64,000 bases of DNA. Source: Octopus vulgaris (Eukaryota). Where the stretch lies: assembly GCA_951406725.2 (NCBI GenBank), contig OX597833.1, positions 73,098,001 to 73,162,000 on the forward strand. The letters are read 5' to 3'. Shown piece by piece: positions 16,294-61,580 of the stretch (position 1 is its first letter; each line of letters starts with the position of its first letter). The notes under the pieces are model-generated. The model saw nothing but the letters and a program-made list of their open reading frames with translations. It was not told the origin of the DNA and ran no database searches. The translations under genes were made by a program, and so were the position numbers.

Positions 16294-16330
<37 letters not shown>

Positions 16331-16532: not shown

Positions 16533-16571
<39 letters not shown>

Positions 16572-16652
16572 CACTTGCTAATATCAAGCAGTGAGAATGT
16601 GTGCTCACAACCATATTAGTAGATAATCCAAAAATATAAAAAAAGAAAAATG

Positions 16653-16693
<41 letters not shown>

Positions 16694-21013: not shown

Positions 21014-21050
<37 letters not shown>

Positions 21051-24000: not shown

Positions 24001-24118
24001 TGAAAGGATGAAAGGCAAAATTAACCCCAGCGGAAATTGAACTCAGAACAAAGCAGCTGACAAAATATGGCTAAGCATTTCACTTGGTGTGCTAACGATT
24101 CTGTCAGCTTGCTACCTC

Positions 24119-24151
<33 letters not shown>

Positions 24152-27100: not shown

Positions 27101-27935
27101 ACCATGACCTCTTTTCGATTGAGAATGACAGACTCCAACCAGTTAAAACGATCATCTTTCACACCCATTGCAGAGAGTTTTGCCATAAGCCTTTTGTGTG
27201 GCACAGAATTAAAAGCTTTAGCAAAGTCAAAGTAAGCAACATCCACCCATGGCCTGAGTGGTGTCTTCAAGAAACTCGATAAGTTGATCACAGCAGCTGG
27301 AGTTTGGAATAAATCCAAATTGCAATGGCCAGATAAAGCTGTGAGAATTCCAAGAGATCCAAAATGTTTCACTGCCACAGGATTCCATCAGTTTGGCAAT
27401 GCAGCTAGTAAGACTGACCAGACGATAGTTTACAGGCGATATGAGATCACTGTTTTTGAACAGAGGAATGACACTGGCAGTTTTCCACTGCTCCGGAGTA
27501 GCACCATTAAGACAGAACTGAAAGAAGAGTGAAAGCTGGTGCAGAAGAAAGTAGCCACCAGGTTTGAGAAGCAGGTATGCAACACCATCAAGACCAGGAG
27601 AGGCAGAGTAGCATGTATTCCTAAGGTGATGTCACAGGATTTGGTGTCAGAGGCGGTAGAGACTGTACATTTTGGTTTTCAACGGTAAAAATGCCTGCAT
27701 AGCATTCAGCAATGAGTTCTGCACATTCTTTGGGATCATCAGTAATCTAGCCTTTGTGGGGATTGTGAAGGGGACCAACTGGAGAGTATGCGTGTGTGTG
27801 TGTCTATTCAGTTGTAAAGTTGCATAAGTGAGTGAAAAAGCTGACAGTTTCATGCAAACAAACAAAATTTTGATGAGTGCAGTGTATGGAACCCTCAGCC
27901 CTTGAGTTACTTATGTAACTTTACAGCCAAGTAAG

Positions 27936-27975
<40 letters not shown>

Positions 27976-30219: not shown

Positions 30220-30266
<47 letters not shown>

Positions 30267-30327
30267 TTTAAATATTTGTTGTGCAAGATTTATTGGCTAA
30301 ACTGGCAATATGACCATTCCGAAATAT

Positions 30328-30362
<35 letters not shown>

Positions 30363-30668
30363 ACCCTCTCTTTATAAATGTTCTGAAATGTTTCACAGCC
30401 TTGGATTTTTATCTCATTCTGTTAAATTTTTTTAATTATACGTTTGCCAGATAAGACTGGAGCCTGGTGCAGCCTCCTGGCTTCCCAGATCCCCGGTCGA
30501 ACCGTCCAACCCATGGTAGCATGGAGAACGGACGTTAAACGATGATGATGATGATATATATCATTTGCATAATCATCGAACCTGGAGCTTAACTCTGGTC
30601 TGTCCATAGCACTTACTCAGCATTACCTGACACCTTTGGGTCTCAATGACACCATTACCTCTCATAAG

Positions 30669-30723
<55 letters not shown>

Positions 30724-33700: not shown

Positions 33701-34012
33701 CCAATTCTGTCCTTCACTTACCATATGGATGGCTGCTTCCCAAACTCTCCCTTCTACATCTGCAGACATATTCTCTGCTCAAAACTGTTATTTAATTGCA
33801 GTTTCTGTTTCAAAAGATTTTCACCACAACCTCTTTCTCTCCCCCTACTCCCTCCATCTCTCTCTCTCTCCCTCTCTTCCCCTTCTCCCTCCATCTCTCT
33901 CTCCCCCTTCTCCCTCCATCTCTCTCTCCCTCTCTCCCCTACCCCAACTTTGGTTCTCACTCTTTCATTCACTCAATTTCTGTCTTTTAATCTCTCTCTT
34001 TCTTTTACCTAT

Positions 34013-34064
<52 letters not shown>

Positions 34065-37000: not shown

Positions 37001-40000
37001 TTTTAATGCAATTATCTGCACTGCAGCTTTGCATGGTGCAACATTTTATCTTTTAGTATTTTTTAAAAGTCTTCTATTTGCTAAAAATTATGATTTTGAA
37101 AATTTAATTGTTGAGATGATTAACTTCATCTTTAGAAATAATGTTCCAACTTACACACCATCAATACTTGGGAGCTGTCCCACAACTTTATTTAGACAGC
37201 TATTTTCAAACCTTTTGTCACTTCTGATGAAGGTTTTCAGCTCTATTAACCAAACCGTTTCACATTTTCCCAACCAAGGCCTTCTCTTGCTATTGTCACT
37301 ATTACACAAGTGTTGTGGTACCGTTATCAAGTCCATTGTCACCGTTATCAAGTCTTCTACCAATTTTAACCAAGTCATCTTCCATTGTTAACATTTATCT
37401 TTAGAGCTGATAGATGTGTAGATGTAAAAGCAAAACATCTTTCCTCTTCAAAGATAGTCTGAAAAATGATGTGATTAACTCAGACATTTAGACATGTAAT
37501 AACCATTTTTGTACAAGTAGAAAGATATATTTTTTCAACGTGTAAGTACTGATATAGAATAAAATCCTTACAGAGCAGAAAAATCTGTCAGCAACCAACC
37601 ATGAGACTTGAACTCACATCCCTTCTTGTACTACATTTCAGTGCTTCAAAAACAAACCGATGTTTGTTTACATATGACATAACTGTTTTTTTTTTTTTTT
37701 TTTTCAATTCTTTCTTTTGCAGATAAAAACTATTTTGAGTGGCTTCATTATCCGAGGCTACTTAGGGAAATGGACATTAATGATCAAATCAGTTGGGATG
37801 ATGTTAGCTGTATCTGCAGGCCTTAGTCTTGGTAAAGAAGGCCCCTTTGTTCATGTAGCATGTTGTTGTGGGAACATTTTTTCCTACTTGTTTCCGAAAT
37901 ATGGGAAGAATGAAGCCAAAAAGAGAGAGGTAAGGATAGCATTTTTCCTTCCACTTTTATATTTTTATTGCCTGCCATTATTTGGCTGTGCCAATTCATG
38001 GGTGCTGATTTCAAGAGTTTTATGCGAGGAAAATGACCCCGTCTTTCTCTGTAAGGTAGAATTGTGAAGGGAGTAACCAGAACATAGCCAAATATCACAA
38101 AGTATTCTTGTTCACTGCACCAGTTCTGCTATGGCACAACACTTATTACATAAAAACATACAACACACAGCTTGGTCTGTACGTCACATCCATAGTTGGG
38201 GTTTTAAGCACCTAGATCTGGTATAGACCCCATGATAACCTCTATAATTTTATTTATTTATTACTTGGACTTTATATTACATTTATTTTAGAATGACTAA
38301 GGGAGCACCTGTGAAACACTGGCAGAACAAACAATACAAGCTTATTTTGTTTGGAAGTCCTGGTTTATCTCTTTCTTGCCACGTCTTATCATCATCCTTC
38401 AATCGACCATGGTTGGTCAGAACACCATTGATAATCCCTTTCCACATTTCATGGTCCTGCATTGCTGGGTTCAGATCTCTAATCTCCAACCCTGAGTTCC
38501 AAGATTTAGTGCCTGGAAATGTCAGTTTCCTGGAGAAAACACTTCCAGAGGGATGGTCATGGCCAGAAAATTGTAGCCGTTTCTGCTTTGGCTTGAAGGA
38601 TATTTGTATTAGATTTCTGTAGATGTTACTAAGTGTTGGGTGTCATCTCTAATTGGTGTTTTGCATCTTTCTGAGCAAGTTGGTATACGTTCCATCTTCT
38701 TTTTCTAAGACAGCCGATAAGGTCCAGGTTTCTGATCTATTGAGAAGGACCGGCTCAATCAGTGTTTCTAAATATTTTAACTTTTAACATGGGTGGAAGG
38801 CTTGAGTGCCAGATCTTATCAAGTCTATTACATGCACCCCAAGCAAGAGCTTTGCAGATGCGAAAGTCCTTTTGGGAGTCTACTGTGATCCAAGATATTT
38901 GAAGTTAACGTTTTTGATTGGTATATTATTGAGTGATTTAATACAGTTCTATATTTAAGAGATGAGGAATTATGTACATTATTTTTGGTTAAGTACTTTT
39001 CCCGCAGTTGCCTCACTAGGAAGACAGCCTCAGCAGTGCTTCATCTCATCTAGGCTAACTCTAGAAGACACTTACTCAGTGACACCCTCTGCATCGTTGT
39101 GAAGCAAATTTCTTAACAAGCTGACCCTGTTTTCCTTCTTTTCCCTAGCAACAGTCTCAGGGACCTGATTCAACAGACCTATAATCAAAGCACATTCCAC
39201 TCTGTGACCATGCATTTAGTTACTTGTATTGTTGTTTTGCCCCTGGTCAGTCCTGATTCAACAGACCTATAATCAAAGACATTTCACTCTGTGACCATCC
39301 TGTCTATCATTGTCTTTGTTTTGTAAGATGACCGGGTGCAGTTTGAGGAAATTTGCCTGAATCTGTAGCATGATGTTTGAGGGCAGAGGTTTCTTTGGTG
39401 CCTGCTGTACTTCTGTGGCAGTGTACTCTCTCGACTTCTGTACTTTTTGGAATGCCAGCTCTTGCATCATCATCATCATCATGTTCTTTACCATTGTCAA
39501 TATTATCATACAACCATTGTGACATCTTGTTACATCTGGCTTTCTTTTTTCCTATGAAGGTCCTATCAGCTGCTGCTGCTGCTGGGGTCAGTGTAGCGTT
39601 TGGTGCCCCAATTGGTGGGGTGTTGTTCAGTCTAGAAGAGGTAAGGAAATTGTTTATTTTAACTCTTACTACAACTTCATATTATATTTAACTCTAAAAA
39701 CTTCTTTGTTTCAGATGTGTGTGTATATATATATATATATATTTATATGGCTGTGTGTGCATACATATATGTGCACATAATGCAATGTGTATGAAACTCT
39801 TGGCCATTGGGCCACTTATGTACCTTTTGCAGCCAAATAAAATGTGTGTGTGCCATTTACCCCTCCTGCAGACATCCTCTCTTCCCCTTTCTTCTCTCTC
39901 CTTTCTCTTTCTTTTTCTCCTCTCACTCTCTCTCTCTCTCTGCTGTTTATCATTACACGAAAAAAATTATTAGGAAATATAGGCTTGTGTACAAAGACAG

Positions 40001-43000
40001 TGTACACAATCCTTATATTAAGATGTGTGAAACATTTGGCACATCACATACACACACACACACTGCTTTCATATTCCATCATCTCAAAAGAAATGCTTTC
40101 CATCCTACAAAACTTACGCTTGTATTCAGTTCTGGAAGTTATTAGCTGGAATTTGGTACAAAAGAATCCAAATACAATGGAACTTTGGCTTACAAATCCT
40201 TTTCATCATAAATGAATCAGTTTATGAACAATTTTACAAACCTAAATATACATTTCAAGTAATGAATATATGCAAGATGACAACAAGCTGGGGGTGTCAG
40301 TCGCTTTCATTCAGGGCATAGCCCTGCTCAAATTCACCATGCTTTCTCTTGAATTTCCTTTGGGTAAAATAATTTCAGCTTATGAACATTTGGGTGGAAA
40401 ACAGCCTTCAGGAAAGAATCAAATTCATAAACCAAGGTTCCACTTTACCTGGTCTTCACTTTCACAACAGTTTGCCAGTTATTAGTAATTTCCAACATTT
40501 CCTAACAATGTGCTAGGAATTGTGAGAAAGGTTTGTGCTGAATTTAATTGGCGATGGTATGTGATGGTATTTATTTAAACGATCTTGGTTGGAATTGAAT
40601 GTGAAGGGACATAACTGAGTATTGTAAAATATTTTATCCCAAATTATTCTGGTTGTCACTGACCGTCCTGAATGGAATGCACCATCATCATAAGGTCTCC
40701 ATGCTGGTGGCATGCTTGAGATGATTTGATAGGAGATGACCAGGTTTCATTTCGTCCGTTTGAACATAATCTCTACAGCCGGATGCCCTTCCTAACGCCA
40801 GCCACGTTACCTGTGTGCTGGGTGCCTTTAACATGGCACCTGCTTGGGTGCTTTTACACAGGTCTGGCACAGGCACTTTTACCTGGCGCTAGCAAAGGTG
40901 CTTTTATGTTCACCAGCCCCCATATGCCCACAAGACAAGAACACACAGAGGACATGCCTGTATATATGGTGGACGGCCATAATTTTACTTGGTTGGACAT
41001 ATATTCTCAAGCACAGCAAACCACCAGAAGACTTAGTCCCTTGTCATCCTCTCTCTATATCTGAAGCACCTTTCTCACCATTTTGTCCCATTCTTCTTGG
41101 ATCTACCCTTTCCACACATTCCTCGTACAATCAGAAATCAGCACTTCTTGGTGCAAATGTACTCATCCATAAGCATCTCATGACCATTCCAGTGCAGTCT
41201 CCTTTCTGGCACACAACATCTGATGCCTCTTATACTTCACGGTTCTCTCAGCTCATTTACAATCTGTTGTACGTGTACACTGACATTACCCATCCAGTGG
41301 AGCATGCTGGCTTCATTCTTTTAGGCCTTCCCATGTTTTACTGCCATGTAGCATAGCTAGTCACACACTGGCTTCATACAATCTGGAGGAGGGGAGATAA
41401 GTGAAGAAGAGATGGGGGTGTATGAAATGTGTAATTTTCTTTTGAGAAATGTTTTCTTTTCTCCTTTACTTCGACCATCCGTAATGCTTTTGCATGATTA
41501 CTTGAAAAGAAAGGCAAAGTGTTGAAGATGTGAGAAACAGTTGGTAATGCAAAGAGGGAGTGTCGTGTATGAAGTCTGCAAAATTGTGCATAAAGTGCAT
41601 TTATAAAGTGCATTAAGTAATCATCTGATTCCAGTTTGCTTCCATTTTCAATGATTAGCGGATGAGTGACTCTCTTCTTTCATACAGACACTACACAGGT
41701 TACGCTTTCAGGGTTTTGGGATAAAGTTTTCAGAAATAACCCAATAAGTTTACCATTAATTCTGTATAATATCCACGGGTCCCACTAGTCTTATAATAAT
41801 TCTTTCTAATTTTGGCAGAAACTCAGCAGTTTTAGGGGTGGGTATAAGTCAGTTGAATCGACCCCGAAAAGAATGAAAGACAAAGTCTAGCTTTGCAGAA
41901 TTTGAACTTAAACCATAATGAATTGGAGGAAATGCCGCTGGGCGTTTGGTCCAACATGCTAACAATTCTGCCCAATATAAAGATTTGGAAATAGGGGTCC
42001 CCAGACAACAAACATGTGATGTCAAGACAGGGAAATATGAGCAGGCACAAGTCTTCTTTCAGTTTCTGTCTACCAAATCTACTCACAAGGCTATGGTCTG
42101 TCTGGGGCTATAGTAGAGGACCCTTGCTTATGGTGTCATGCAGTGGGACTGAGCCCTTAACCAAATGATTAGGAAGCAAGCTTCTTGCCGCATGGCCACA
42201 CTTGCACCCATCATTATTCTTTATTCTTATATTGCTGCTGCTGCTCTGTCTCTTGAAATCTCTCTCTTCTTTCACTGACTCCAGAATTATTTTCTCTCCT
42301 TTCCATCTTCAGGTCAGCTACTATTTCCCATTGAAGACCCTATGGCGTTCCTTTTTCTGCGCCTTGGCTGCCGCCTTTGTCCTTCGTTCGCTGAATCCAT
42401 TTGGCAATGACCATCTTGTCATGTTCTACATAGACTACAATGAACCATGGTACCTTCAGGAGCTCATACCATTTATACTTCTTGGAGCATTTGGTGTGAG
42501 TTGATTTCTCTTTTTCCCTCTGTGAAATTTCTTCAGTTTTCTTCCTCCCCCTCCTATCACCTGTATTCCCCCTTCCTTCTCTATTCTATCTCCTCTTCCT
42601 CCTCCCTTCTTTCTCTCTTATCTTCTCTATTCTCTGCCTCTGTCTTCCCCTCTCAGACCCTCCTCCTACACTCATCTCTCGCTTCTATTTCCAGGGATTG
42701 TATGGCAGCTTCTTTATAAAGTTCAATATTATGTGGTGCAGATATCGCAAAACTTCCAACCTGGGCAAATATCCAATTGTTGAGGTAAGTCGTAACTTGA
42801 CCAATCCAAATCCCTACCTGATCACTCGATCTGCTTTAAAATAAGGACACATTGGACAGTGTAATCCTTGATAAACATAGATATAGGTTGAGCGTGATTG
42901 GAGTGCCTTTTATGCCATATTTCTGCTCCATCAGGAATGTCCTGGGGTTCAGCATCAAAGCCAAATGAGGAAACTCTATTTGAGGATTCAGCTTGCTAGA

Positions 43001-46000
43001 AATAACAGTCAAATCTCACTGAAAACTCGCCTTATCTTAAAGGATGAAAAGAAGGGATGGAATGGCTTCAGCTGGAACCGTTTTTATCCCGTTGCCATGA
43101 CATTCTATGACTGTTGTAAATGAGTGTCATCCAAACAACGACCTTCACTTTTTACAGTCTTCTGTGAAAACGTGTCTGGCCACGGGGTGGGGATTAGTAT
43201 CAGCTTGCTTGGAAACACCTGAAGTTTCATGTTAAGAAGGGTATCTGGTTGCAGAAAACCTGCTTCACCCAATTCTGACGGATCCATGCTAACGTGGGGA
43301 AGTGGTGGATGTTAAAACAGTAATGATGATCTATCAATCCAAGTTGCGTACAGTGGGACTGAACCCCCAACCACACTGTCACGCCTGTCTCTTGTACCAT
43401 CAGTTTGCACCCCCACCCACCCTCTGCACCCAAACATGTATCGATCCTCCACTCAACCATTTTATCTTTGTTTTCTTGCAGGTTTTGGTTGTTACATTCA
43501 TTACGGCTCTTCTCAGTTTCCCAAATCAGTATACAAGGTATGTAGCAGCACACATTTTCAGCTATTAATGCATTAATGAATTACATTCTTGTGAAAAATA
43601 ATGCTGTTGGTTCCAGGTTTTTAATGAACCAATCTGGTTCACTGTATTTCTGACAGTGAGAGGGATGGGTAGGGGCCATTGCCACTCATTAGGTAATTCT
43701 GGGCCTTGAGTGCTAAAACACAGCAAACAGTGGGTGTTGACTAGATTCTCCACAGCTTAAACAAAATTTCTTAAGCCAAAAGAGAAGTCTCTGACAGAAA
43801 AGAGGAGAAGGGGGTACAAGTAGGAGAACAGGGTACAAGTCTCTTACAGAAAAGAGGAGAACAGGGTACAAGTAGGGCAGGAGAAGTGAGTCAGCCATGG
43901 GATGCTATGAAGCAGTAAGAGACAAAAGAAATTCACTCACTCTTTGCAAATGCACAAACACTGCACTTTGGTGCAAATTTTACTAAAGCTTTGAATAAAT
44001 TAAATTACATTTGACTCAAGATATAATGTAATCCAAATAAAGTGGTACAGGAAAACAAAACAAGGTATGAAATAAACTTGTATGCACATGCACGTTCCTT
44101 CCCTCAGGAACTGGCTTATGTTTCTTGCACATACCATCATCATTTACCATCCATGCTTCATGCTGGCATGGGTGGAATGGTTTGACCGGATCCGATGGGC
44201 CTAAGGATTGCATTGTGCTCCAGTGTTTGCTTTAGTATGGTTTCTGTGGTTGGATGTCCTTCCTAATGCCAACCATTTTACAGTGTTTCTGTTTTTCTTT
44301 CACGCCACCAGCACTAATGAGGCCCCCGCTTGGTTTGCAAAGACTACAAACCCTGAGGGGGGAAGCTTTGTATGAAAAGATGAGGGGTAAAATTATGATA
44401 GAAGGGACCAGACCAGAACAGGTTTCTTGCTGTCGAGGTGCTACATGACTTCTTATATTTAAGAAGGTTGGGAGTGAAGGTCTGAAGTGGGTGGGGATGA
44501 ATGGGGCAGAGGGCAGAAAGTGAGTGAAGAGTAGATGACTGGCAGTGTGGAGCAGCAGAAGAGTAATGATGAAGCAGTAGACAGGAGAAGGATGAGAGAA
44601 CAGAGATGATGTTGGGTAGGGAAGGGAGAAGCAAATGTATGAAGAAGGTAAGAGATAGGTGGTGGTGGTGGTGGTGGCTCAGTTGTGGAGGTGAAGATGA
44701 GGAGACAAGCTTCTTCTTGGAGAACTGTGAAATGTCAATGGACATCAGAACAAAGAGCTCTTGTTCTTTGTGTTCTGAGTTCAGATCCCATCAAAATCAA
44801 CTTTGCTTTTCATCCTTTCAGACTTGATAAGCTCACATACCAGCCACGTATTGGGGTCAATGTAATCAACTGGTCTCTGCTCAGAATTGCTGATCTTGTA
44901 TCCAATTCAGAAACAGTTATTTTAATATATACACTTGAAACTGTTTTAGATAAAAAAAAAAAGTCTATATAACTGTGTCACACAAATGGCACCTGTGCCG
45001 GTGTTATGTAAAAGCACCAATTACACTCTCAGAGTGGTTGGCATTAGGAAAGGCATCCAGCTGTTGAAACCATTCCAAATCAGACTGGAGCCTGGTGCAG
45101 CCTTCCAGCTTGCCAGCCCTGGTCAAACTGTCCAACCTATGTCAGCATGAACAATGGACGTTAAATGATGATGATGATGATGATAAGATTGATATTGTAA
45201 CATGAGAGCTAACATTCAAATTCCACTGAGGTTAACTTTGCCTTTCATCCTTTCGGGGTTGATAAATTAAGTACCAGTTGCGGACTGGGGTCAATCTAAT
45301 TGACTGGCCCCCTACCCCAAAATGTTAGGAATAACTCTAATTGTAATTTGGTTCCTCAGAGAAAATTTCTTAAAGAAACTTGTGAGAATCCAGCCACATT
45401 CTGAGGACATTGCCTGTTTCTTTGAATCCACTGTCATTGGTGTTTGGCTTGGACGCTTGCTTCCTAACCACATGGTCTCCGGTTCAATCTCATTGCCTGT
45501 TTCTTTGAATCCACTGTCATTGGTGTTTGGCTTGGACGCTTGCTTCCTAACCACATGGACTCCGGTTCAATCTCATTGCCTGTTTCTTTGAATCCACTGT
45601 CATTGGTGTTTGGCTTGGACGCTTGCTTCCTAACCACATGGTCTCCGGTTCAATCTCATTGCCTGTTTCTTTGAATCCACTGTCATTGGTGTTTGGCTTG
45701 GACGCTTGCTTCCTAACCACATGGTCTCCGGTTCAATCTCATTGCCTGTTTCTTTGAATCCACTGTCATTGGTGTTTGGCTTGGACGCTTGCTTCCTAAC
45801 CACATGGTCTCCGGTTCAATCTCATTGCCTGTTTCTTTGAATCCACTGTCATTGGTGTTTGGCTTGGACACTTGCTTCCTAACCACATGGTCTCCGGTTC
45901 AATCTCATTGCATGCTTTATTTAATAAGTATTTATTCTTGTTTCTATTTAGAATGAATTCCAGTGAATTGATCCGTCTTCTCGTTAACCGCTGTGGACCA

Positions 46001-46773
46001 GAAGGAACTCGAGAATTATGGTAAGTTTGTTTTATTTTTACTTCTATGTTATTTATACTTTTTATTTTTAATTTCTGTAAAATTAAGTCATTTTTAGTAT
46101 TTTCCTGTCATTTATTTTATAAGCAGAAATCTCATTGGTTACAGTTTTTCCAATTGTCCAGTCACTGGCTTGTTGCATTTCTGATAGTATGAGTGTGAAG
46201 GGAGTACCTATGCAACATGGGCAGAATTAATAGCACAAGGTATTTATCATCTGGATTAACAATGGCAGCATAAACATCATTAATCTAATCTGTTTGTTTA
46301 TCTCGTTGCAGTGACTATAACCGTAGTATAACAAATGTGAACATCTTTGGAGGAAGTGCCGTCGCTGGTGACGGGGTCATCCGGGCAGTTTGGCAGTTAT
46401 GCTTGGCGCTACTCTTTAAATCTATCATCACTATCTTCACTTTTGGCCTTAAAGTGAGTGAAATGATTACACATCCTGCTCTCTCTCTCTCATCGTAACT
46501 GAATGCATGATCTATTTCAGTAAGGTGTGTGTGTGTCTACTTGGTGCAGTTCATTATATTTGAGCGCATATGCACTAGGACTGTGTGTGTGCTTGCAGTG
46601 TATATGTGTACATTTTGGTTGTGTGCATGTGTATGTATGTACATAGTGTGTTTGTGTTGTAAAATACAATGGTGTTGATAGTGTGTGTGTATGCAGAACA
46701 TTGGAGGACCCTGCTTGCATCCAGGTGGCACTCATTTACAACTGTCAAATGATGTCAAGGCAAGGAGACTATT

Positions 46774-46814
<41 letters not shown>

Positions 46815-49800
46815 TGCTTATCTTCCTACACCTCAGTCGAACCGTCCAACCCATGCCAGCATGGAAAATGGACGTTAAACGATGACGATGATCATCCTCA
46901 TCCTCATTATTTCCATCATTGAATGTCTGTTTTCCCAGCTGTCATGGCTTGGATAGTTTGACAGGGTCCAATGAGCCACACACATGGAGAGAGGCAGTTT
47001 GTATGTTTGAGCTATGTGATATGTGTGTGTAGAATTGTATGTTCTCAATAATGTGTGTTTGTGTTGTATTAATGTTTATTGAACATCTGAACGTCCAAGC
47101 AATGATGAAGTGGATGTCTACACACAGGACACATCTACACCAATGGTGTGTGTGTGTGTGTGTGTGGTTCATGATGCTATTTATTAAACACTTTTGCACA
47201 TTATTTCTCAAACTTCCCTTTAGTCAATGACTGCAGTGTTTGAATTGTTTTCTTTTTCCAGGTGCCATGTGGTCTGTTTATTCCTAGTATGGTTGTTGGT
47301 GCCATTCTTGGCCGTATAGTTGGTATTGGCACTGAACAGTTAGTTGTGTAAGTTATTTCTCTCTACTTTGTTTCCCTTATTTTAATAGTAAATTCAGGAA
47401 GGAAGTGATGGCACTCATGACCTTTAAAAGAGGTTTTCCCATCCTCATAATCATCCTTTAATATCCGTTTTCCATGCTGGCTTTGCTTGAAGGGTTTAAC
47501 CAGAGCTGACAAGCTGTGGAGCTACACCAGGTTCTAGTTACCTCATGCAGGTGGAATTGATGTGGCTCATGTTCAGCTTGACATCTGGAAGTCTGTGACT
47601 GTGGGGAAAACATAGCCATATTTTCAGATGGCAAAGTGTGATCTTGGGAGATTTGGCTGCTATTTCTTGGGTATTATCTACCATTACATGATTTAATGTT
47701 AACGCCAAATCTCCATGGTGTACGATGGAGAGTTGGGCGTTATATCTAGCAGGTTGAATGACTTCATGGAGGTTCCCTTGTCAGATTGTCATCACCTTGT
47801 GTGTGTGTGTATGTATGTTTTAATATGACAAGGGCCATGCAGTGGGAATCTGATGTTTGCTTTGAATTCCTGTTTCATTTTCCCATTTTGTCACCTTGAT
47901 TGCATTGAGATAAGTATTGATCTTTGACTCTTTTTCCCTTTTCAAACTTTTTAAAAAGCTTCCTTAGAGGGACACTGCTCATGAACCTATCCAAAATCTC
48001 CACTCAGAAGAAAGTGGGGCCTGACTTGAATCCTGCAACTGACTCAACTTCACTACAGGCATCCAAGGGTCAGGTGTTGGGGCTAAACTGGGTGATAGAT
48101 TTAGTTCATCATCTGTCATCTAACAACAGAAACTGTCCCTCTGACAGACTTCCATATAGATTCTGTCTGCTAAATTTAACTCAGAGGGCTTTTGTTACAA
48201 GAAACATGTTCAAAATGGCATGCACTGAAATTGAACCTCAGAAACACATAGTTGTAAAGCTCACTTCTTAACCTCATAGTCTGACCTGTGCACTGTCCAC
48301 TCTTTACTGCATAGTTCTGACCATTATGCTAATTAATGAAATAAATAGATCTTCCCTTTCTCAGTAAAATGGTTTATCGGTGTGTCTGAGAAGTTAGGTG
48401 GGCAATTAAACTCTTTGCATATACAGTTGGCGATGTGGGTTCGAATTCCACTTGGTCTGCCTTCTTTTCTCCATTCCTTGAACTCATAATTTCTAGTTAG
48501 TAAAGCTCAGCTGTTTTCCAGTTGGCCTAAACTGAATTGCTGCTAACCGTTTACACAAGGACAATACCTTCAATCAGTGACCCGACCTCCCACTGATCTC
48601 TTATGAGCCACTCAACAGTTTCATCTTATAAAGCAGTGTAATGCTTGACTACAACGGAACCTTCTGACTTTCTTCCACTCATTGACCACCCTCTCTCTCT
48701 CTCTCTCTCTTCCATAAACCTGCTTAAACAGGTCTGACCAGAGCTACACAATATCTATCTTAACTTAATAATCTGATCGCTAAGGATTTTATCACAGGTT
48801 TTTGGTAAATCTTTCTCTTCATTCCCATTTCCCCCACAAACGAAACCTACCTGGTCAGTAGTGACACACACACACATCATTTTATAAAAATCCTTCACCA
48901 ACTTCATACTCTTTGTAGAGGAAGTGAAATTTAGAAGGTTACTGGAATACTAAGTAAGATGGTTTGGGTTAAATTGGTCAGAATTTGCTTCTTATTATTT
49001 CTCTACACAATATTTCAAGACCTTTTTTTTTTTATCTTTATTTTACAGGGCAAATAGGGATTCCTGGTTTTTTTCCAATATGTGTACATCTCAGGAGATG
49101 TGTACAGTTACTCCAGGTCTGTATGCCATGGTTGGAGCTGCTGCAGCACTTGGAGGGGTGACAAGGATGACAGGTAAGGGAAATAAAGTTGCTTCATCAA
49201 TTCTCACACACAACAAATACCATCTTCCTATTCGAGCAGAAAATAGAAACTTTAATTCTTTGTCACTGTACATTCAGAAGAAAGTGAAATTATGCTAAAT
49301 ACAACTAAATTGAAAACCATTTTTCCCTGGCTATATCAACAATTCTTGAAACTTTTAGGCGTGAATTTTACATACGTAGAAGCTTTTTTTTAACAAATTT
49401 TATCCTGAAAATCACCTGCCTAAATTACATAGGTGCACAAATTACATGGGTTTTTACAGTAATATGATATATTGTCTCCATGAAGCATAAATTTACTTCA
49501 CTTCCACTAATAAAAAATATTTCCCACTTTGCAAGATGATTCTCTCCCTTGCAATAGAAACAACCAACCAATAACACTGGTCAACGAAATGAAACTTTTT
49601 TTAATGATCAGAGTTTCCGACTGACTTTTCTGGGTTAATTTTTGATGTTGATTACGAATCTGAAGTCTGATTTTCTCTATCAGGTCACATTTTCATGTTA
49701 ATGATACCTGCTGTTTTAACTCATAGGATACGTAAAGTATGTCTATATAAAGTATACTGAATACAAGATACGATAATTTCATGGCTTTTTATTGTACAAA

Positions 49801-52446
49801 ATTTAAATTATTGTGTACAAATAAGTTAGAATACACTCAAATGCATAACAACTTAAAATCTTTGGGATTTGGACTTTCTATGGTGTTTTGTCTCAGGTTC
49901 ATCCCTATATAACATCCAACAGTAGTCAGCTAACATTCCTGCATTCCAAAATCCTTGATATTGTTGTTCCATCGATGCAATATCTTGACGAATGCGTTCC
50001 CCCTTGCTCATCAGACACTACTCCAAAGTTCTCTGCAAAAAAGTCCAGATGTGAATCAAGGAAATGGTCTTTTAGTGACATCCAACAGCCCATTGCAGTA
50101 TAGGAGTCTAGAAGACACTTCACTCCATTTCTGAACTCTAGAGATCTCTTGTTGCCTAGGAAATTTTCACAGAGCCATTTGAAGGATTCCCAGGCTTTAA
50201 GCTCAATCTCATCCAGTGCTGTGAGGAAGTGGTTGTCCTTCAGGAGTTGACCAGTGTAATTGAACATCTTAAGATACAACAAAAATTTGAACTGAACAAC
50301 TGTAACTGTTGTTCATTAATGTATGACATTGGTTGTGAGTTAACTTCTTGCTGAGACCTGTATGAAGAAAAATGTTGATAGAAACTTCATAAGAAATGGC
50401 AACACTTCAGTGTCTTCCACTTATGGCAGCTTCCCTGAGAGACACCCTTTGATACAACTGCAACGGTTATTTTCATAAATTGGAACTGTTTTAGTCTAAA
50501 ATAAATTGTTCTTAAGGCAGGATGGCATGGTCATGGCTAGAATGTCTTTAGTCATTCTTCTGTTCACTCGGAGCCAATGGTGGCTCGTAGATAAAATTAG
50601 TTGGGGTGCTGCTTCAGAAAATTTTTAGTGTTTTTTTAATATTGTGTAAAAGGAAACAAATATATAAAAAGAAAATTTATACATAAATTTGATCAGTTCA
50701 TGTTTCTGCCACTGCCAGGTGGTGTTTAATTTGTTCACTGAACACAGGCACAAATTCCCCCTTGTTTTTAAAAAATCACCCCTAAATCACAAAATAAGGG
50801 GGAAAATCTGGCAGCTACACTGAAGCTGGAAGCAGGATAACAATCTAATTCTACACTGTATCACATTCAAGACTATAAACACGTTTTTAAGCACAACACA
50901 TGTAGAATCAAAAGGAAACCCTACCTTTCACCAACACACCAGGGTCAACACTGCATGAAGCACAGTGCTCTCTCTCTCTCCCTAGCATGCAGCTTTCTAT
51001 CTTGGACATATGAGCATGTGCACAACTGCCAAACACTGCATCACTGGAACTGTGAAGCACACAGTTCTATACAAGGATTTTTGTATTTATTTTCATGAAC
51101 TCGGGAATGGCTACTGGCATTAAGCTTCAGGATTAAATAATGTCAAAGTATAGAGAAAGCATTAAAAAGGATTCATTATATTGAACGTTATTGATAATAT
51201 CGAGTGGAAATAGGGGGTGCCGCAGTACCTGTACACATGCCACCACTGCTTAGAGCTAAGCAACATTGACAACAGTTCCACTCATGATATTACTTTTGTT
51301 CTGCAGTTTTGTTTATCACAGCCATGGTCATACTGGAGCACTGCCTGCTGTTAGCATTTCGTTTTATATATTTTTTCCTGTACCTTTAATTTTAAAAATT
51401 ATTTGAAAAAATGTTTTTTATTAAATTCTATTTTCAGTGTCTTTGGTTGTGATAATGTTTGAGTTGACAGGTGGGCTGCAGTACATCGTACCTATGATGC
51501 TTGCTGTAATGACAAGTAAATGGGTCGGAGATGCTCTTGGCAAGGAAGGAATGTATCCTTTTTCTCAAGTCTGAAATTAAGAGTTTTATGTGTTTAATTT
51601 TTCCATTTAGTTGCAGGAAGATGAAGGGTGAAGATGGGTCTTGTGGGAATCACCTCACACTGTTGAGATCAATTCAGTATTTATTTTGAATTGTGGTTGT
51701 GAGGGAAGCCTCTGAAGGTTGGCCATATTGTTTTACTGCATAGATTTGTTGCATTGGGGAGTGCAGAACCGAAGAGTGGAGATGTTAAGAAGGGGCACGG
51801 ACAGGTGTATTGGGCAGCTTACAAGAGTAGGATGGGGGTCGGGGGTTATGCATGGCTTGTGTGTTCACGTGTATCTGTGTATGTTATCGATCGTGTTGTG
51901 AGAGTTTCTCATTCCTTCTTTAAATGTTCTTTATGCACAAAAGTATGCATATCTCACTCTAGTATGAGATTGCACCAGCATGGCCATGTGGATAGGGCAT
52001 ATACAAACTATTGGAATGAAATGTCTGTCAAAAGACCAGCGAGTCACATGGACTGAAGTGAGACATTACTGCAGTGTTTGGGATCAGCTCTTTAAATGAC
52101 TTTCAGGGCCCAAAAGTTATTTCAAGATACCAGACTAGGAAAGAGTAATCATAGGCACAGCAAGGGGTCGGACTCTGTAAGGAGCAGACAGCCACCATGT
52201 ATGGGTGTGTGTGTGCATGTGTGCGCACTGACGTTTACTGATCTGATCCATGCAAGCATGGAAAAGCATTAAAACGAAGATAATATTTACACACGATGTG
52301 TGGCTAAGAAGTTCATTCCCCAGTGTCATATGATTTTGGGTTCATTCTCACTGGGTAGCACCTTAGTTAAGTGCCTGCTGCTACAGTCCCAGATTGATCA
52401 AAACCTCGTGAGAGCATTTGGGGATGGAAATTGAAAAAAAGGCTAT

Positions 52447-52482
<36 letters not shown>

Positions 52483-55399
52483 CACACACATATATACATA
52501 CATAAACAGGGGTTGAACAAAATAATGGAAACACCTTAAATTTTCAAACAAATTAATTTTAATACTGGGTAGGACCACTTTTGGCCATAATTACAGCTTG
52601 ATTTCTTCAAGGTATGGACTCGTATCATAAATGTTCAGTAATATTGAGATCTGGGGTCTGTGGTGGCCAGATAAGATGTTCAACTTCATTAGAATGTTCC
52701 TCGTGCAATTAAGTAACGACTTTAGCTGTGTGCATTGGTGCATTCTCATCCTGAAAGATTGCATTTCCCTCCGGAAACAGTTCCGCAACCATAGGATGAA
52801 TTTGATCAGATAAAATGCTTAAATAGCCTTGACTCTGCCATGAAAGGAAACCATTGGGCCAGCGGATTTCCAAGATATAGCCTCCCCCACCCTTGCCTCA
52901 GATCATCACAGATCCTCCTCCATGTTTAACAGTTGGAAGAAGGCAGTCTGTGTTAAATGCTTATTTTGGCTGTCTCCACACATATACTCGGCCAGTAGTC
53001 GGAAATAAGATAAAGGATGACTCGTCCAAGAAAATAACATTGGTCCACTGCTCTAGGGACCAATTCTGTAAGTTTTTACTCCACTCTAAACACTTTGCAA
53101 CGTTTGTTTTTGAAAGTAGTTGTTTTCTGATTGCAGCCCTTCCATGAAATCTGGCTTTGTGCAGCTCCTGGCAAAGAGCTTTTGTGGAAACTGGGTTCTC
53201 GAGGTGGTCATTAAGCTCTGCAGTTATTTTGGGGGCTGTACTTTTGTGATCCTTTCTAACAATTCGCATAAGAGTCTGACGGTCCCTATCTGAAAGTTTT
53301 GATTTTCTTCCGAAGTTTTGTTTTGTTGAGAAGGTTTTTCCCTCTTTCTCAAAGGCTGTCATTACTTTCGAGACAGTACTTCGGGATACACCAAACATTT
53401 CAGCTGTTTTCGTTATGCTAGCACCTGCCATACGAGCACCAACAATTTGACAACTTTGAAAGTCTGATAGATCTGTCATTTTAATGAACTTGAATTATCT
53501 TTTTCTGATGATATCTGAAAAGAAACAGCAATTTTAGCAAAACATATTAAGCAACACTAATAATAAATCAAAAACATAAAAATAAACAAGCTTTTGATGG
53601 TTTTATAGATATTTCAAAATTATGATGCTAAGTGTTTCCATTATTTTGTCCACCCAACTGTATACCTCTTACTTTCTTTTACTTGTTCCAGTCATTTGAC
53701 TGCAGCCATGCTGGAGCACCGCCTTTAGTTGAGCATATCAACCCCAGAACTTATTCTTTGTAAGCCTAGTACTTATTCTATCAGTCTCTTTTGCCAAACC
53801 ACTAAGTTACGGGGACGTAAACACACCAGCATCGGTTGTCAAGCGATGTTGGGGAGACAAACATTGACACACAAACATATACACACACACATACATACAT
53901 ATATTTATATATACATACGACAGGCTTCTTGGTCGGCCCGAGGCTATAGTAGAAGACACTTTGCCGAAGGTGCCACGCAGTGGGATTGAACCTGGAACCA
54001 TGTGGTTGGTAAGGAAGCTACTTACCACACAGCCACTCCACTCCGACGTATGTATATATATATATATATATCACTCGAAAAGAAACTCCAACCTTGTCCA
54101 ACCTTCACATTTCATTCACAATCCTGAAAGGAAACTCTCTAAAGAATGGAGCTGTGCAGTATGAAATCACTAAAGTCTGGTCAGAGAGGGACCAATGGTT
54201 TCACATCCATGAAGCCACAGCCTTGTGGACAGCTCATAAGACAAATTGAACTCATCAGCTCTTGGAGGTACAGAAACGCTGTCAATTTGTCATCAGAGAA
54301 AAAAAAAAACGTTAGTGGACATAGGTTGTCTCCCCTTGACCAGCGATTCATTGGATGTGATGGAGAGTGGAATTCGTTTTTGTCTAATTTGATGAGTTGG
54401 CCACAAGGCTGGTCACTCTATGACTAGACTTTAACTTTACTGATTTAATACTCACACACAGGCGTAAATATTGGGCTTTATATGTGTGTGTGTGTTTGTA
54501 ACTCCTTTGTCTTGACATCATGTGATAGTTGCAAATGGCCATCACCACCATAAAAACTATGATTTGGAAACATTTATAGTTATATGTCTACACAAACACA
54601 CAGACTAGGGAGCAGCCCCAGACTCACCTCTGTTTATTGTCTAAAATATGCGTGTGTAATTATATATAATCATCATTATTTCCCATCCATTTTCCATGCT
54701 GACATCGGCAGGTTGGTTCCACAGAAAGAGGCAAATCAGAAGACACCAGCAAACTCTGTCCTCTGCTTTGACCTGGGTTTTCTGGTTGGATGACCTTCCT
54801 AATGCCAACTGTTTTCCAGTGTGTGGACTGGGTGCTGAGGTCAGCAGGGAATTTGCAGGACAAAGAGGCCATCTACTGGAGTGTGGGGTGAGTATTGAGA
54901 GGCAGAAAGGTGTCTTCCATTAGAAGACAGACATGGTTTCCTCAGAGAGAGCAAGAGGAAAGATGATGTAAGCAAGTGTCGGGTGCAGGGGTCATACACC
55001 CAAGCTGCAGGGTGAGGCATATAGTAGGGGGAACCAGGAATTTTGAAAGGTGAGTGGAAACTAGAGATGGGGGGGGGATTTAACAGGGACATAGTGTGTG
55101 CAGGTAGATAAGTAGGTGGATAGGTGATGGGGAATGAAAGAGAGGGAGGGGGGAAAAAGTAGTGGTGAGCATGGGTGGGTTGTGGGAGATGGAATGGGTC
55201 GGGTATATGGCTTCTACTTTGCTGGGTGGGTCTTCTGAAGCGCAGCATATCTTCAGTTGTCTCAAACCATTGAATTATGAAACTCCTTGACATTACTCCT
55301 CAGCTATGATGCCCATATACGACTGAATGGTTACCCTTATTTAGACAGCAAGGAAGAATTCACCCACACAACAATGGCAGCAGATGTGATGCGGCCTCG
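5314..55399 (+). CDS. CLCN3: ClC-3/4/5-like H+/Cl- exchange transporter, spliced CDS span (15 exons, 3'-incomplete)
   Basis: Exons join in consistent phase with GT-AG boundaries. The protein has [29 protein letters not shown] (gating Glu), GGVLFSLEE (proton Glu), GLFIP, GIY (central Tyr) and DVMRPR (start of CBS1). The symbol denotes the ClC-3/4/5 subfamily, not strict 1:1 orthology. Confidence 0.96.
9903..10308 (+). mobile_element. 5'-truncated RTE LINE (second family) with (TGA)n tail and 11-bp TSD
   Basis: [20 protein letters not shown]...[11 protein letters not shown]...AMMDREVWR; tggggtcagtt at 9892-9902 and 10309-10319. A diverged minus-strand relative lies at about 38385-38830. Confidence 0.9.
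10820..11240 (+). mobile_element. Degenerate Penelope-like element, GIY-YIG endonuclease region
   Basis: Frameshifted fragments [49 protein letters not shown] and NRKNELF follow the order of the PLE endonuclease pattern CPLxGxC / HxxSF / LSxYIW / IKW / CxLCLxEK / LNxRxE. Confidence 0.65.
15964..16182 (+). CDS. CLCN3: CLC exon 2
   Basis: ttccag|GG...GCCG|gtcagt; [29 protein letters not shown]...DAWSGW; phase 1 to 1. Confidence 0.96.
17318..17975 (-). mobile_element. RTE 3' UTR fragment with internally expanded tandem subrepeats
   Basis: Reverse complement of 3020-3465, with a (CAT)n tail and repeated tgccactggcac and cactcgaatggtg units. Confidence 0.85.
22423..22494. repeat. (GGT)n microsatellite, representative of many (TA)n, (CA)n, (CT)n, (CAT)n and (TAA)n tracts in the window
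   Basis: Seen directly; other examples are (CT)n 5898-5965 and (TA)n 30223-30264, 30672-30719 and 61063-61102. Confidence 0.95.
23903..24345 (-). mobile_element. Two tandem copies of tRNA-derived SINE family B
   Basis: Minus strand shows A-box-like and B-box (gagttcaa) motifs, a core ttcatcctttcggggtcgataaa..aagtaccagt and a (TTA)n tail; other copies at about 873-1040, 21925-22095, 41795-41975, 44770-44915 and 45213-45320. Confidence 0.85.
24740..27700 (-). mobile_element. CR1-like LINE ORF2 remnant, split by a pogo insertion
   Basis: Minus strand: [36 protein letters not shown] (26860-27378), then [19 protein letters not shown] and [14 protein letters not shown] (24943-25419). Confidence 0.9.
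25521..26794 (-). mobile_element. Internally deleted pogo-like DNA transposon
   Basis: Imperfect TIRs (ctgcaaaaacctatgtaatttacacc / ggtgtgcaaatttcatgggtttttatga) with flanking TA; minus-strand remnant SFTAKEKL...[16 protein letters not shown] resembles a pogo N-terminal DNA-binding domain; a second copy of one end lies at about 49282-49461. Confidence 0.75.
28785..30222 (+). mobile_element. Near full-length decayed mariner transposon
   Basis: TIRs ttgggtcatctcacaaataatgcg / tgcattatttatgggatgattcaa in TA context; transposase pseudogene about 28968-29997 with [22 protein letters not shown] and [14 protein letters not shown] motifs, carrying stops and frameshifts. Confidence 0.93.
30721..30920 (-). 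mobile_element. Short non-autonomous repeat between (TA)n tracts carrying a degenerate hammerhead-like motif
   Basis: Minus strand gtttCTGACAA-A-GAGC-tct-GCTC-GAACCGTTaaat at about 30818-30852. Confidence 0.5.
31815..32210 (-). mobile_element. Full-length tRNA-derived SINE family A
   Basis: Minus-strand head gtggctgtgtggtaagtagcttgc...ggttcagtcccactg (A/B boxes), central gccttgtaagtggatttggtagacggaaactgaaagaagccc, 3' ctccagcatggccacagtcaaatgactgaaac; other copies at about 34818-35118, 42050-42200, 53675-54040, 60270-60385, 16690-16810 and 52300-52440. Confidence 0.88.
32236..33260 (-). mobile_element. Old, deleted RTE LINE copy
   Basis: Reverse-complement similarity to 2083-3465 (tail motif, and ACVxTAMLHGS and LPLLVT regions); a similar copy lies at about 40683-41360. 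Confidence 0.75.
35270..35841 (-). mobile_element. Three tandem SINE family B copies directly upstream of exon 3
   Basis: Three repeats of caactggtacttattt...gaaagg...gtcaacc. Confidence 0.85.
35871..36019 (+). CDS. CLCN3: CLC exon 3
   Basis: ttgcag|GT...CAG|gtcagt; [34 protein letters not shown]; phase 1 to 0. Confidence 0.96.
36643..36807 (+). CDS. CLCN3: CLC exon 4
   Basis: ttctag|TGG...GAG|gtaagt; ends [12 protein letters not shown]. Confidence 0.96.
37723..37929 (+). CDS. CLCN3: CLC exon 5
   Basis: ttgcag|ATA...GAG|gtaagg; [15 protein letters not shown]...[12 protein letters not shown]...NEAKKRE. Confidence 0.97.
39560..39640 (+). CDS. CLCN3: CLC exon 6
   Basis: atgaag|GTC...GAG|gtaagg; [27 protein letters not shown]. 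Confidence 0.97.
42313..42495 (+). CDS. CLCN3: CLC exon 7
   Basis: cttcag|GTC...GGT|gtgagt; [15 protein letters not shown]...[12 protein letters not shown]. Confidence 0.97.
42695..42784 (+). CDS. CLCN3: CLC exon 8
   Basis: ttccag|GGA...GAG|gtaagt; [30 protein letters not shown]. Confidence 0.95.
43482..43537 (+). CDS. CLCN3: CLC exon 9
   Basis: ttgcag|GTT...AG|gtatgt; [19 protein letters not shown]; phase 0 to 2. Confidence 0.94.
45408..45911 (+). repeat. Minisatellite: 6 near-identical copies of an 83-bp unit
   Basis: Units start at 45408, 45491, 45574, 45657, 45740 and 45823; only two substitutions seen. Confidence 0.97.
45952..46020 (+). CDS. CLCN3: CLC exon 10
   Basis: atttag|A...TG|gtaagt; [23 protein letters not shown]; phase 2 to 2. 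Confidence 0.93.
46312..46453 (+). CDS. CLCN3: CLC exon 11
   Basis: ttgcag|T...AAA|gtgagt; DYNRS...[23 protein letters not shown]. Confidence 0.95.
47262..47347 (+). CDS. CLCN3: CLC exon 12
   Basis: ttccag|GTG...GT|gtaagt; [27 protein letters not shown]. Confidence 0.96.
49049..49173 (+). CDS. CLCN3: CLC exon 13
   Basis: ttacag|G...G|gtaagg; [23 protein letters not shown]; phase 2 to 1. Confidence 0.96.
49575..50256 (-). mobile_element. Chapaev3-like (CMC) DNA transposon, internally deleted
   Basis: 11-bp TIRs cactggtcaac / gttgaccagtg with taa on both flanks; minus-strand [16 protein letters not shown]...[27 protein letters not shown]. Confidence 0.8.
51438..51552 (+). CDS. CLCN3: CLC exon 14
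   Basis: tttcag|TG...AT|gtatcctttt; [39 protein letters not shown]. Confidence 0.96.
51553..55303 (+). other. U12-type (minor spliceosome) GT-AG intron
   Basis: 5' splice site GTATCCTTT; branch site TCCTTGAC at 55284-55291, with the branch A 13 nt before the intron end; no real polypyrimidine tract. Confidence 0.92.
52507..53660 (-). mobile_element. Tc1-family transposon (decayed), inside the U12 intron
   Basis: TIRs cagggggttgaacaaaataatggaaacac-like at both ends; ORF 52961-53479 [19 protein letters not shown]...[12 protein letters not shown], and a downstream [10 protein letters not shown] motif. Confidence 0.92.
55304..55399 (+). CDS. CLCN3: CLC exon 15
   Basis: cctcag|C...CG|gtaagt; [32 protein letters not shown]; phase 2 to 2. 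Confidence 0.96.
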
Positions 55400-60377: not shown

Positions 60378-60419
<42 letters not shown>

Positions 60420-60873
60420 TGGATGAATTTTGTTAAAAGCTAAAAGCCTGATTGCAAAGAAGCAATAAAGACCGAAAGAGCTGCGAACATTGGACCGAAA
60501 TAATACTTGGTAATAATGTTGATAATGATTACCTCATCATCATCATCATCATCATCACCAGCAACAACAACAACAACAACTACAGTAATGAGCATGTGTG
60601 GGAGCCTCTACACATTCACCCAACCATCCAGAAATAACATTCAACTCTCCCTCAAACCAAATCCTACCATCTTGTGTATGAACTGATGTAGACAAGATGG
60701 TCACAGCTGGAAAGTCATTCATCATAGGTCTGTTCAGTCAGGGTTCACTTGGAACTAAACAGCGACTGACACCACCACCACCACCACCACCACCACTTCA
60801 TGTTTATCCATTTTAACAGTTTGTTTGTTTTTTTATTTTTATTTTTTTTTTGTTTTTGTTTTTGCCTCCCAAG

Positions 60874-60897
60874 GTACTGGCGATATGGACTGGGCGT
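60874..60897 (+). CDS. CLCN3: Candidate 24-nt alternative microexon of the CLC gene (R-YWRYGLG-V)
   Basis: About 50-nt T-rich tract, tgcctcccaag acceptor, consensus gtaagt donor, length a multiple of 3, no stop in the phase-2 frame. Confidence 0.65.
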
Positions 60898-61023
60898 GTA
60901 AGTGTTCTCTTTTCCAATACTACTGAGTCTCGCTCTCATCTCTCAACCTCTCTCTTAACCCCACCCCCCAGTGCTGCCTTTGTAGAATGCTTCACCATTT
61001 ATTTATTTATGTGTGTGTCTCTT

Positions 61024-61106: not shown

Positions 61107-61580
61107 ACATACATATATATGCATGTGCATACATGATATATGCATATATATATATGTATATATACATAGATGCATGTGCATATATATATATATACATATA
61201 TATATATGCTTATATCATAAAAAAAACGACTCCTTGGTTGCTTGAACTTTTCTTGTTGCTCTAAAACTTCTGTGTCTTTTTTTTTTATTTGTTTTTGTTT
61301 TTATGGGTTTGTTTGGTAGTTTGGTCATTTTCCTCATAATTGCTATTAAGTCTTTTTGGTGTTGCTGTTGGTCTTGTTGTAGTTGTTCACTGTTGTTTTA
61401 AACTATATTAGTTTGCTGTCTCTTTTATTGGACTGTTAACTTCTGATTAAAGTCACTCATGCACTCATTTGAAAAGAAAGCCATTATTATTACTATTATT
61501 ATTATTAATATTTTTTCACCTGCCTCTGTCATTACTCATTCATGTCTGATCTGTGTGTGTGTGCATACATAAGTATACCT

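What the first reader, a model, noticed from the sequence alone, without database searches (positions are those of the whole stretch)
60811..60903. Candidate neural-type 24-nt microexon inserting a peptide into CBS1 of the ClC exchanger
Seen: a ttttaac branch-like site at 60811-60817, a roughly 50-nt AG-free T tract, TGC at -11 to -9 of an AAG acceptor, a 24-nt unit GTACTGGCGATATGGACTGGGCGT and a consensus GTAAGT donor. It enters and leaves in phase 2, matching exon 15, without stops, giving DVMRPR-YWRYGLGV. Two TGCATG (RBFOX) motifs lie at 61120 and 61171, though in low-complexity DNA. Established: a long pyrimidine tract, a UGC close to the 3' splice site, a strong donor and frame preservation mark SRRM3/4 (eMIC-domain) neural microexons, and ClC CBS domains bind nucleotides and modulate gating and trafficking. 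Inference: a neuron-specific isoform of this endosomal/vesicular exchanger, which no listed ORF captures in the correct frame.
Basis: partly seen in the sequence, partly recalled or inferred. Interest (0 to 1): 0.85.

Follow-up and report, generated by a model that had tools for sequence, protein, structure and literature searches.

The report
Mollusc microexon beside ClC-3 ATP pocket
An octopus chloride/proton exchanger gene has an optional 24-letter exon, shared with snails and clams and already present in automatic gene models, that adds eight amino acids beside the predicted ATP-binding site and is likely switched on mainly in neurons, where it would retune the transporter.

Summary
60874-60897 is a real 24-nt, phase-2 cassette exon of an octopus ClC-3/4/5 gene. 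With it, 20 mapped exons translate letter for letter to a database protein. Octopus models exist with and without YWRYGLGV. An orthologous [YCS][WA]RYG insert stands in models of 31 named cephalopod, gastropod and bivalve species, and in none of the chiton, nemertean, brachiopod, arachnid, crinoid or vertebrate models seen. So it is already annotated, though I found no paper on it. The insert starts three residues after the arginine matching mouse ClC-3 R659, which holds the adenine of ATP. Neural, eMIC-driven inclusion is likely (about 0.6) but untested. For it: this acceptor alone of 20 has a TGC at -29..-6, and the genome encodes the eMIC motif. Against it: the runs carried no tissue labels, and oyster records show inclusion often (73 of 196 contigs). 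The RBFOX motifs are microsatellite-embedded duplicates and carry no weight. Verdict: new member of a known kind, notable for its age and position.

The parts
60874..60897 (+). 24-nt cassette microexon, phase 2/2, adds YWRYGLGV after DVMRPR
   Evidence: exon chain translates to P0121, 762 of 762 positions incl. stop; inclusion and skip isoforms, orthologous inserts
60811..60817 (+). branch-point-like TTTTAAC; presumed branch A at 60816, 58 nt before the exon
   Evidence: sequence; use as branch point is inferred from consensus, not tested
60820..60871 (+). 52-nt AG-free tract, 74% T in the last 50 nt (highest of 20 acceptors in the gene)
60863..60865 (+). TGC (UGC) at -11..-9, candidate eMIC/SRRM enhancer element
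   Evidence: 1 of 20 acceptors has TGC in -29..-6; function inferred
60871..60873 (+). AAG acceptor
   Evidence: 3 of 20 acceptors in the gene are AAG
60898..60903 (+). GTAAGT donor of the microexon
55304..55399 (+). upstream exon (YDAHIRL...DVMRPR), carries the Arg matching mouse ClC-3 R659; donor GTAAGT at 55400
   Evidence: covered by spliced contigs in 4 of 4 runs
51553..55303 (+). intron before the upstream exon, U12-type by sequence (GTATCCTTT donor, TCCTTGAC branch-like site near the AG)
   Evidence: joint 51552-55304 GT..AG in 4 of 4 runs; minor-spliceosome class read from recalled consensus
15963..51552 (+). 13 further coding exons of the ClC-3/4/5 gene (15963-16182 to 51438-51552); five more lie beyond the window in L004-L005
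   Evidence: Pfam Voltage_CLC and CBS
61120..61176 (+). two TGCATG in a microsatellite; not counted as evidence

Best explanation
This is a conserved 24-nt cassette exon of the octopus ClC-3/4/5 exchanger gene that adds YWRYGLGV three residues behind the arginine matching the ATP-holding R659 of mouse ClC-3; it is likely included mainly in neurons through the eMIC form of Srrm234, and it would change how cytosolic ATP potentiates the exchanger. Shown: the exon, both isoforms in gene models, conservation in cephalopods, gastropods and bivalves, the alignment position, and eMIC-coding exons in the genome (about 0.97). Inferred: the distal branch site, long U tract and weak AAG acceptor keep the tiny exon skipped by default; eMIC-bearing Srrm234, acting at the UGC, helps U2AF/SF1 define it in neurons (about 0.6). 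Inferred and weakest: the aromatic, basic insert extends an exposed loop at the rim of the nucleotide cleft and shifts nucleotide binding or its coupling to transport, not the ion pathway itself (about 0.4).
For: Exon chain translates to P0121. Skip and inclusion models in O. bimaculoides and O. sinensis. RYG insert in 83 of 344 protein records fetched, from 31 named species; 118 records have no insert, 12 another insert, 131 did not match the pattern (fragments or diverged loops) (species counted). R-Y-G is invariant in those 83. Unnamed assembled-transcript proteins carry it too (4 of the 14 Logan members of one cluster). Contig laying: exon piece lengths fit inclusion in 1 of 4 runs and skipping in 3 of 4 (indirect, with 37). 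TGC at -11 is unique among 20 acceptors. UGC between branch point and AG is found in 74-79% of SRRM3/4 microexons (10.1101/2024.09.17.613571); fly eMIC exons have long AG-free zones, UGC, long pyrimidine tracts and are rich in ion channels (PMC8797185). SRRM_C match over cut-off in G000 C25 and the following ARKRPVPY exon. Insert lies between mouse ClC-3 R661 and R662; R659 flips to hold the adenine and is among residues whose mutation lowers ATP potentiation (PMC11303396). The loop tolerates inserts of 2 to 45 residues in scallops and other lineages.
Against: No tissue-labelled data were seen, and the microexon joint was not among the 15 of 115 joints printed. In Pacific oyster records, inclusion proteins were seen on 73 and skip proteins on 123 contigs among the five listed members with Logan sources (15 of 54 members listed); oyster libraries are mostly non-neural by my recollection, so inclusion there is probably not neuron-only. 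TGC test is 1 of 1 against 0 of 19, weak. The AG-free zone is ordinary for this gene and the UCUC-type element is absent from the tract. Fly eMIC exons have weak donors, this one has a consensus donor. No structure model was obtained. [quoted passage not shown]
Confidence: 0.55

Rival explanations
1. The exon is real and conserved but its inclusion is not neuron-specific or not eMIC-driven: it is enriched in another tissue (muscle, gill or other ion-transporting epithelium) or partly included everywhere.
For: Oyster records show inclusion on 73 of 196 contigs. Most annotated isoforms in many species carry the insert. Recurrent tissue-specific exons also occur in muscle (10.64898/2026.09.05.749416). 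The cis evidence rests on one trinucleotide.
Against: Size, frame, distal branch site, U-rich tract and the unique TGC match the published eMIC code; eMIC is encoded. The oyster peptide is the most diverged and may have changed regulation; contig counts are not inclusion rates.
Confidence: 0.3
2. Splicing is neural, but the peptide works as a binding or sorting surface (adaptor, TMEM9 tail, ClC partner, membrane or phosphoinositide) that changes trafficking or inhibition, and leaves ATP sensing alone.
For: Invariant R-Y-G with a nearby aromatic residue looks like a short linear motif. CBS1 carries the docking face for the inhibitory TMEM9 tail (PMC11962092). Scallops place two more alternative exons in the same loop, as expected for an exposed interaction loop.
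Against: The TMEM9-sensitive CBS1 residues named (R710, T713, S718) lie about 50 residues from the insert site. The peptide has no clean YxxPhi motif: the first Tyr is Cys or Ser in many species (motif recalled).
Confidence: 0.3
3. The AG|GT at the exon start is a recursive splice site that helps remove the 14-kb intron; the 24-nt piece is the by-product exon of that process.
For: The exon begins with GT, so joining it to the upstream exon rebuilds a GT donor; the first inserted residue varies only among Y, C, S, which can all start with T.
Against: The rebuilt donor GTACTG is poor; peptide conservation with an invariant core across three classes means selection on the protein.
Confidence: 0.05
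4. Chance splice-like motifs in T-rich intron DNA, or an annotation artefact.
For: The region is low in complexity.
Against: Same peptide at the same place in 31 species and in assembled transcripts.
Confidence: 0.01

Closest known systems
eMIC-dependent neural microexons (vertebrate SRRM3/4, invertebrate Srrm234; PMC8797185, 10.1101/2024.09.17.613571)
   Same: 3-27 nt, frame-preserving, long pyrimidine tract, distal branch site, UGC near a weak acceptor, ion-transport gene; regulator motif encoded in the genome
   Different: Neural enrichment and eMIC dependence untested here; no UCUC element; consensus donor as in mammals, unlike flies; conserved over three mollusc classes, whereas fly eMIC exons turn over fast (nine shared with three other insects)
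Vertebrate ClC-3/ClC-4/ClC-5 exchangers and their CBS nucleotide site (PDB 8JEV, 9DNW, 2J9L)
   Same: Orthologous protein (1176 bits); residues matching R659, Y689/N690 region and K798 region align; the skip isoform has the same loop length
   Different: None of the vertebrate models seen has an insert here; octopus has His in place of Y689
RefSeq/GenBank octopus 'H(+)/Cl(-) exchange transporter 5' isoforms (XP_029647365.1, XP_014783627.1, CAI9738054.1)
   Same: They already contain this exact peptide; X2 isoforms lack it
   Different: Automatic models only: no tissue pattern, regulator or function attached
Drosophila ClC-a eMIC-dependent exon (PMC8797185)
   Same: eMIC-regulated exon in a CLC family gene
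   Different: ClC-a is another branch of the family; the one ClC-c row in table S2 is a 204-nt high-inclusion exon

Membership tests
Coding microexon | 3-27 nt between canonical AG and GT, frame kept, no stop | tested here: met
Coding microexon | present in transcripts, with skip and inclusion forms | tested here: met
   gene models and assembled-transcript proteins of both forms; direct joint not printed
Coding microexon | conserved at the orthologous position | tested here: met
   31 named mollusc species, at protein level; splice-site DNA of other species not available
eMIC/Srrm234 neural microexon | UGC between branch point and AG | tested here: met
   TGC at -11; 0 of 19 other acceptors in -29..-6
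eMIC/Srrm234 neural microexon | long AG-free zone, strong pyrimidine tract, distal branch point, weak acceptor | tested here: inconclusive
   present, T content highest in the gene, but 8 of 19 other acceptors have a longer AG-free zone; branch point not mapped
eMIC/Srrm234 neural microexon | UCU/CUC element upstream of the UGC | tested here: not met
   the tract is T with scattered G and A; no C between 60820 and the TGC; an enriched feature, not an obligatory one
eMIC/Srrm234 neural microexon | eMIC domain encoded in the genome | tested here: met
   SRRM_C 32 bits over cut-off 27, G000:C25:37317492-37317626, and next exon at 37341780; its expression not tested
eMIC/Srrm234 neural microexon | inclusion enriched in nervous tissue | not testable with these tools
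   runs are coded and carry no tissue
eMIC/Srrm234 neural microexon | inclusion depends on eMIC | not testable with these tools
   needs minigene or knockdown
RBFOX-enhanced exon | downstream TGCATG above background or conserved | tested here: inconclusive
   two copies of one 13-mer in a microsatellite; 46 sites on + in 104 kb, 14 next to dinucleotide repeats; conservation not testable
ClC-3/4/5 exchanger | Voltage_CLC plus two CBS domains, closest to ClC-3 | tested here: met

The most novel reading that the evidence does not exclude
A single eMIC-controlled microexon, born in the ancestor of shelled molluscs and kept for about half a billion years, gives molluscan neurons their own ClC-3/4/5 with a rebuilt ATP-sensing lid, doing by splicing what vertebrates do with three paralogues: a natural switch that uncouples or sharpens energy sensing in neuronal endosomes.
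Probability: 0.25. Interest if true: 0.7.

Novelty: new member of a known kind. Interest (0 to 1): 0.42.

Why it matters
Neural microexon programmes are mapped in vertebrates and insects, but hardly in molluscs, the group with the largest invertebrate brains. A 20-species survey with one octopus found only about 3% of neural exons of its outgroup species conserved elsewhere. An exon kept across cephalopods, gastropods and bivalves is a ready marker to test whether molluscs have a deep conserved programme of their own. It is also a natural eight-residue variant at the nucleotide site of the ClC-3/4/5 family, whose ATP regulation is of current structural and clinical interest, and it can be tested by patch clamp on two isoforms. 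The exon itself is not a new discovery: automatic annotation has it.

Tried and rejected
Tissue test: the look-up of sequencing runs listed 24 runs, no RNA holder listed as on record, no tissue shown. Four runs laid on 51300-60990: intronic repeats filled the tables; 15 of 115 joints were printed, the constitutive joint among them, the microexon joint not; counts of joined forms in other runs were not given. No structure model was obtained, so the loop geometry rests on alignment and papers. RBFOX argument rejected. A 78-nt extension from the AG at 60818-60819 was considered and rejected: two bases behind the presumed branch A and in none of the proteins seen. Other microexons in this intron like the scallop ones: a loose scan gave 5 candidates, this exon, its extension, two with stops and one 39-nt open piece with no match among the inserts seen. 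Literature: eight searches (microexon+octopus; microexon+CLCN, 14; microexon/eMIC/mollusc, 17; ClC-3/TMEM9/CBS1, 31; cephalopod+splicing+neural+SRRM, 43; microexon with mollusc names, 50, too loose to be useful; ClC-3+mollusc+splice variant, 54; octopus splicing, 59) showed no paper on this exon. The 2019 eMIC paper is not held. Supplements of the 20-species preprint are closed and may list this exon with its tissue pattern. The supplement search of PMC9699675 covered little text and skipped one file. Earlier findings of this scan: none.

Full report
Observation. TTTTAAC lies at 60811-60817, an AG follows at 60818-60819, then 52 AG-free bases, with one TGC at 60863-60865 and an AAG acceptor. 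The 24-nt unit is 60874-60897 and the donor is GTAAGT. A strict scan for this architecture gave 2 hits on both strands of 154 kb, one of them this exon; without the TGC condition there were 4.

The host gene. The window holds most of a ClC-3/4/5 gene of an octopus. I mapped 20 exons from 15963 to the stop, five of them beyond the window in L004-L005. With the 24-nt exon the chain translates letter for letter to database protein P0121 from GSTNL onward. The exon splits a 14.1-kb phase-2 intron between 55399 and the next exon (L004:5528-5586).

It is real, alternative and old. Of 14 members of the octopus protein cluster, 9 carry YWRYGLGV and 5 lack it; O. bimaculoides and O. sinensis have both forms. 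In a cluster of mostly unnamed assembled transcripts that also holds a cuttlefish model, 4 of 14 Logan members carry it (9 of 28 contigs). Over all 344 protein records fetched, 83 carry an insert with an invariant R-Y-G, 118 have none, 12 have another insert and 131 did not match the pattern (fragments or diverged loops). Records are not independent. By source names the insert occurs in 31 species: 3 octopuses, 12 gastropods (limpets, abalones, Gigantopelta, caenogastropods, pulmonates) and 16 bivalves (mussels, scallops, oysters, clams, a unionid). It is absent from the models seen for a chiton (3 of 3), two nemerteans (9 of 9), Lingula (4 of 4), and the arachnid, crinoid and vertebrate models. 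Several molluscs (Argonauta, Aplysia, Babylonia and others) showed only skip models, so absence from models is weak evidence. An origin in the ancestor of these three classes, roughly 500 million years ago (date recalled), is the simplest reading; no tree test was run.

Four coded runs, all contigs and RNA only by guess, were laid on 51300-60990. All four show the spliced joint 51552-55304. The microexon joint was not among the 15 of 115 joints printed. An indirect sign remains: the piece on the 96-nt upstream exon is 97 letters long in X4, X7 and X14 and 95 in X1. Skipping adds one matching G from the next exon (97); a joint to the microexon placed at its leftmost position removes one (95) (flanking letters). 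That fits skipping in 3 runs and inclusion in 1. It is my inference from the tool's conventions, and no tissue is known.

Is it neural and eMIC-driven? Published features of eMIC exons are a long AG-free zone, a long pyrimidine tract, a distal branch point, a weak acceptor and a UGC near it (PMC8797185, passages; 10.1101/2024.09.17.613571, passages and section 10: UGC in 57 of 73 and 51 of 71 microexons, helpful but not strictly needed). Within this gene the microexon acceptor alone has a TGC between -29 and -6 (0 of 19 others) and the highest T content, but 8 of 19 others have a longer AG-free zone and the UCUC-type element is missing. The regulator motif is encoded: SRRM_C scores 32 bits (cut-off 27) at G000:C25:37317492-37317626, and the continuing ARKRPVPY exon lies 24 kb downstream in matching phase (the continuation motif was recalled). 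In invertebrates eMIC is restricted to neurons by processing of Srrm234. Against strict neural use: for the Pacific oyster, inclusion proteins were seen on 73 contigs and skip proteins on 123 among the listed members with Logan sources (15 of 54 members listed). Most oyster libraries are not ganglia by my recollection. The two TGCATG are copies of one 13-mer in a microsatellite and add nothing. I put neural, eMIC-linked inclusion in octopus at about 0.6.

What the peptide would do. Aligned to mouse ClC-3, the insert falls between R661 and R662. R659 is named among the ATP-binding residues; its side chain flips to hold the adenine, and mutants of these residues show less ATP potentiation (PMC11303396, passages; the paper lists R659 under CBS2, though by sequence it precedes CBS1's first strand). 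The loop accepts long inserts in scallops and short ones in other lineages, so it is probably exposed. The CBS1 residues that matter for inhibition by TMEM9 lie near 710-718, away from this site (PMC11962092, passages); the passages seen of PMC12403049 name no residue of this loop. The best guess is that three aromatic residues and an arginine next to the adenine-holding arginine change nucleotide binding or its coupling. A binding or sorting role is nearly as likely. No model was obtained, so this step is inference only.

Comparison and novelty. It works like an eMIC-type microexon; membership is open because the two defining tests, neural enrichment and eMIC dependence, could not be run. The sequence is already in RefSeq and GenBank models. 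Eight literature searches showed no paper on it. In 10.64898/2026.09.05.749416 (abstract, passages, section 10) CLC genes are not mentioned in the main text, but its closed supplements cover O. bimaculoides and may list the exon. PMC9699675 (passages, supplement list, one limited search) reports the highest splicing in octopus neural tissue without naming it. In table S2 of PMC8797185 the only ClC-c row is a 204-nt high-inclusion exon. The 2019 eMIC paper was seen only as a citation.

Verdict. Observation confirmed; interpretation partly supported. New member of a known kind, interest 0.42: an ordinary class of element, made worth a look by its conservation across three mollusc classes and its place at the rim of the ATP site.

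Noticed in passing
window 51553-55303: Intron with U12-type signals (GTATCCTTT donor, TCCTTGAC branch-like site close to the AG, short pyrimidine tract); spliced at these ends in 4 of 4 runs. It directly precedes the exon that flanks the microexon.
   Followed up: partly
window 5314-5416: Alternative first coding exon (MATFGGND...VKGY) of the ClC gene, matching the O. sinensis X4 model; at least three other N-termini start outside the window.
   Followed up: partly
proteins P0013-P0015, P0162-P0175, P0208, P0217, P0263: The same intron holds further alternative pieces in other molluscs: a 9-residue and a 28-residue exon in scallops, 4 residues in Biomphalaria, 11 in Mercenaria. The CBS1 entry loop is a hot spot for new exons.
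   Followed up: partly
G000 C25 37301295-37341950 (L008-L013): Srrm234-like locus: RS-rich exon, then the eMIC motif split over two exons 24 kb apart. Whether an alternative last exon restricts it to neurons was not examined.
   Followed up: partly
window 21701-21724: A second 24-nt AG...GTAAGA unit without TGC in a phase-1 intron of the same gene; it would bring an in-frame stop. Chance or poison exon.
   Followed up: no
window 60875-60877: The first inserted codon TAC (Tyr) would read as Cys if edited A-to-I, the residue that limpets and several bivalves have there; no reads were available to test this.
   Followed up: no
window 53570-54200, 57560-57730, 60270-60340: Highly abundant interspersed repeats (SINE-like and transposon pieces) in these introns drew very high contig depth.
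   Followed up: no
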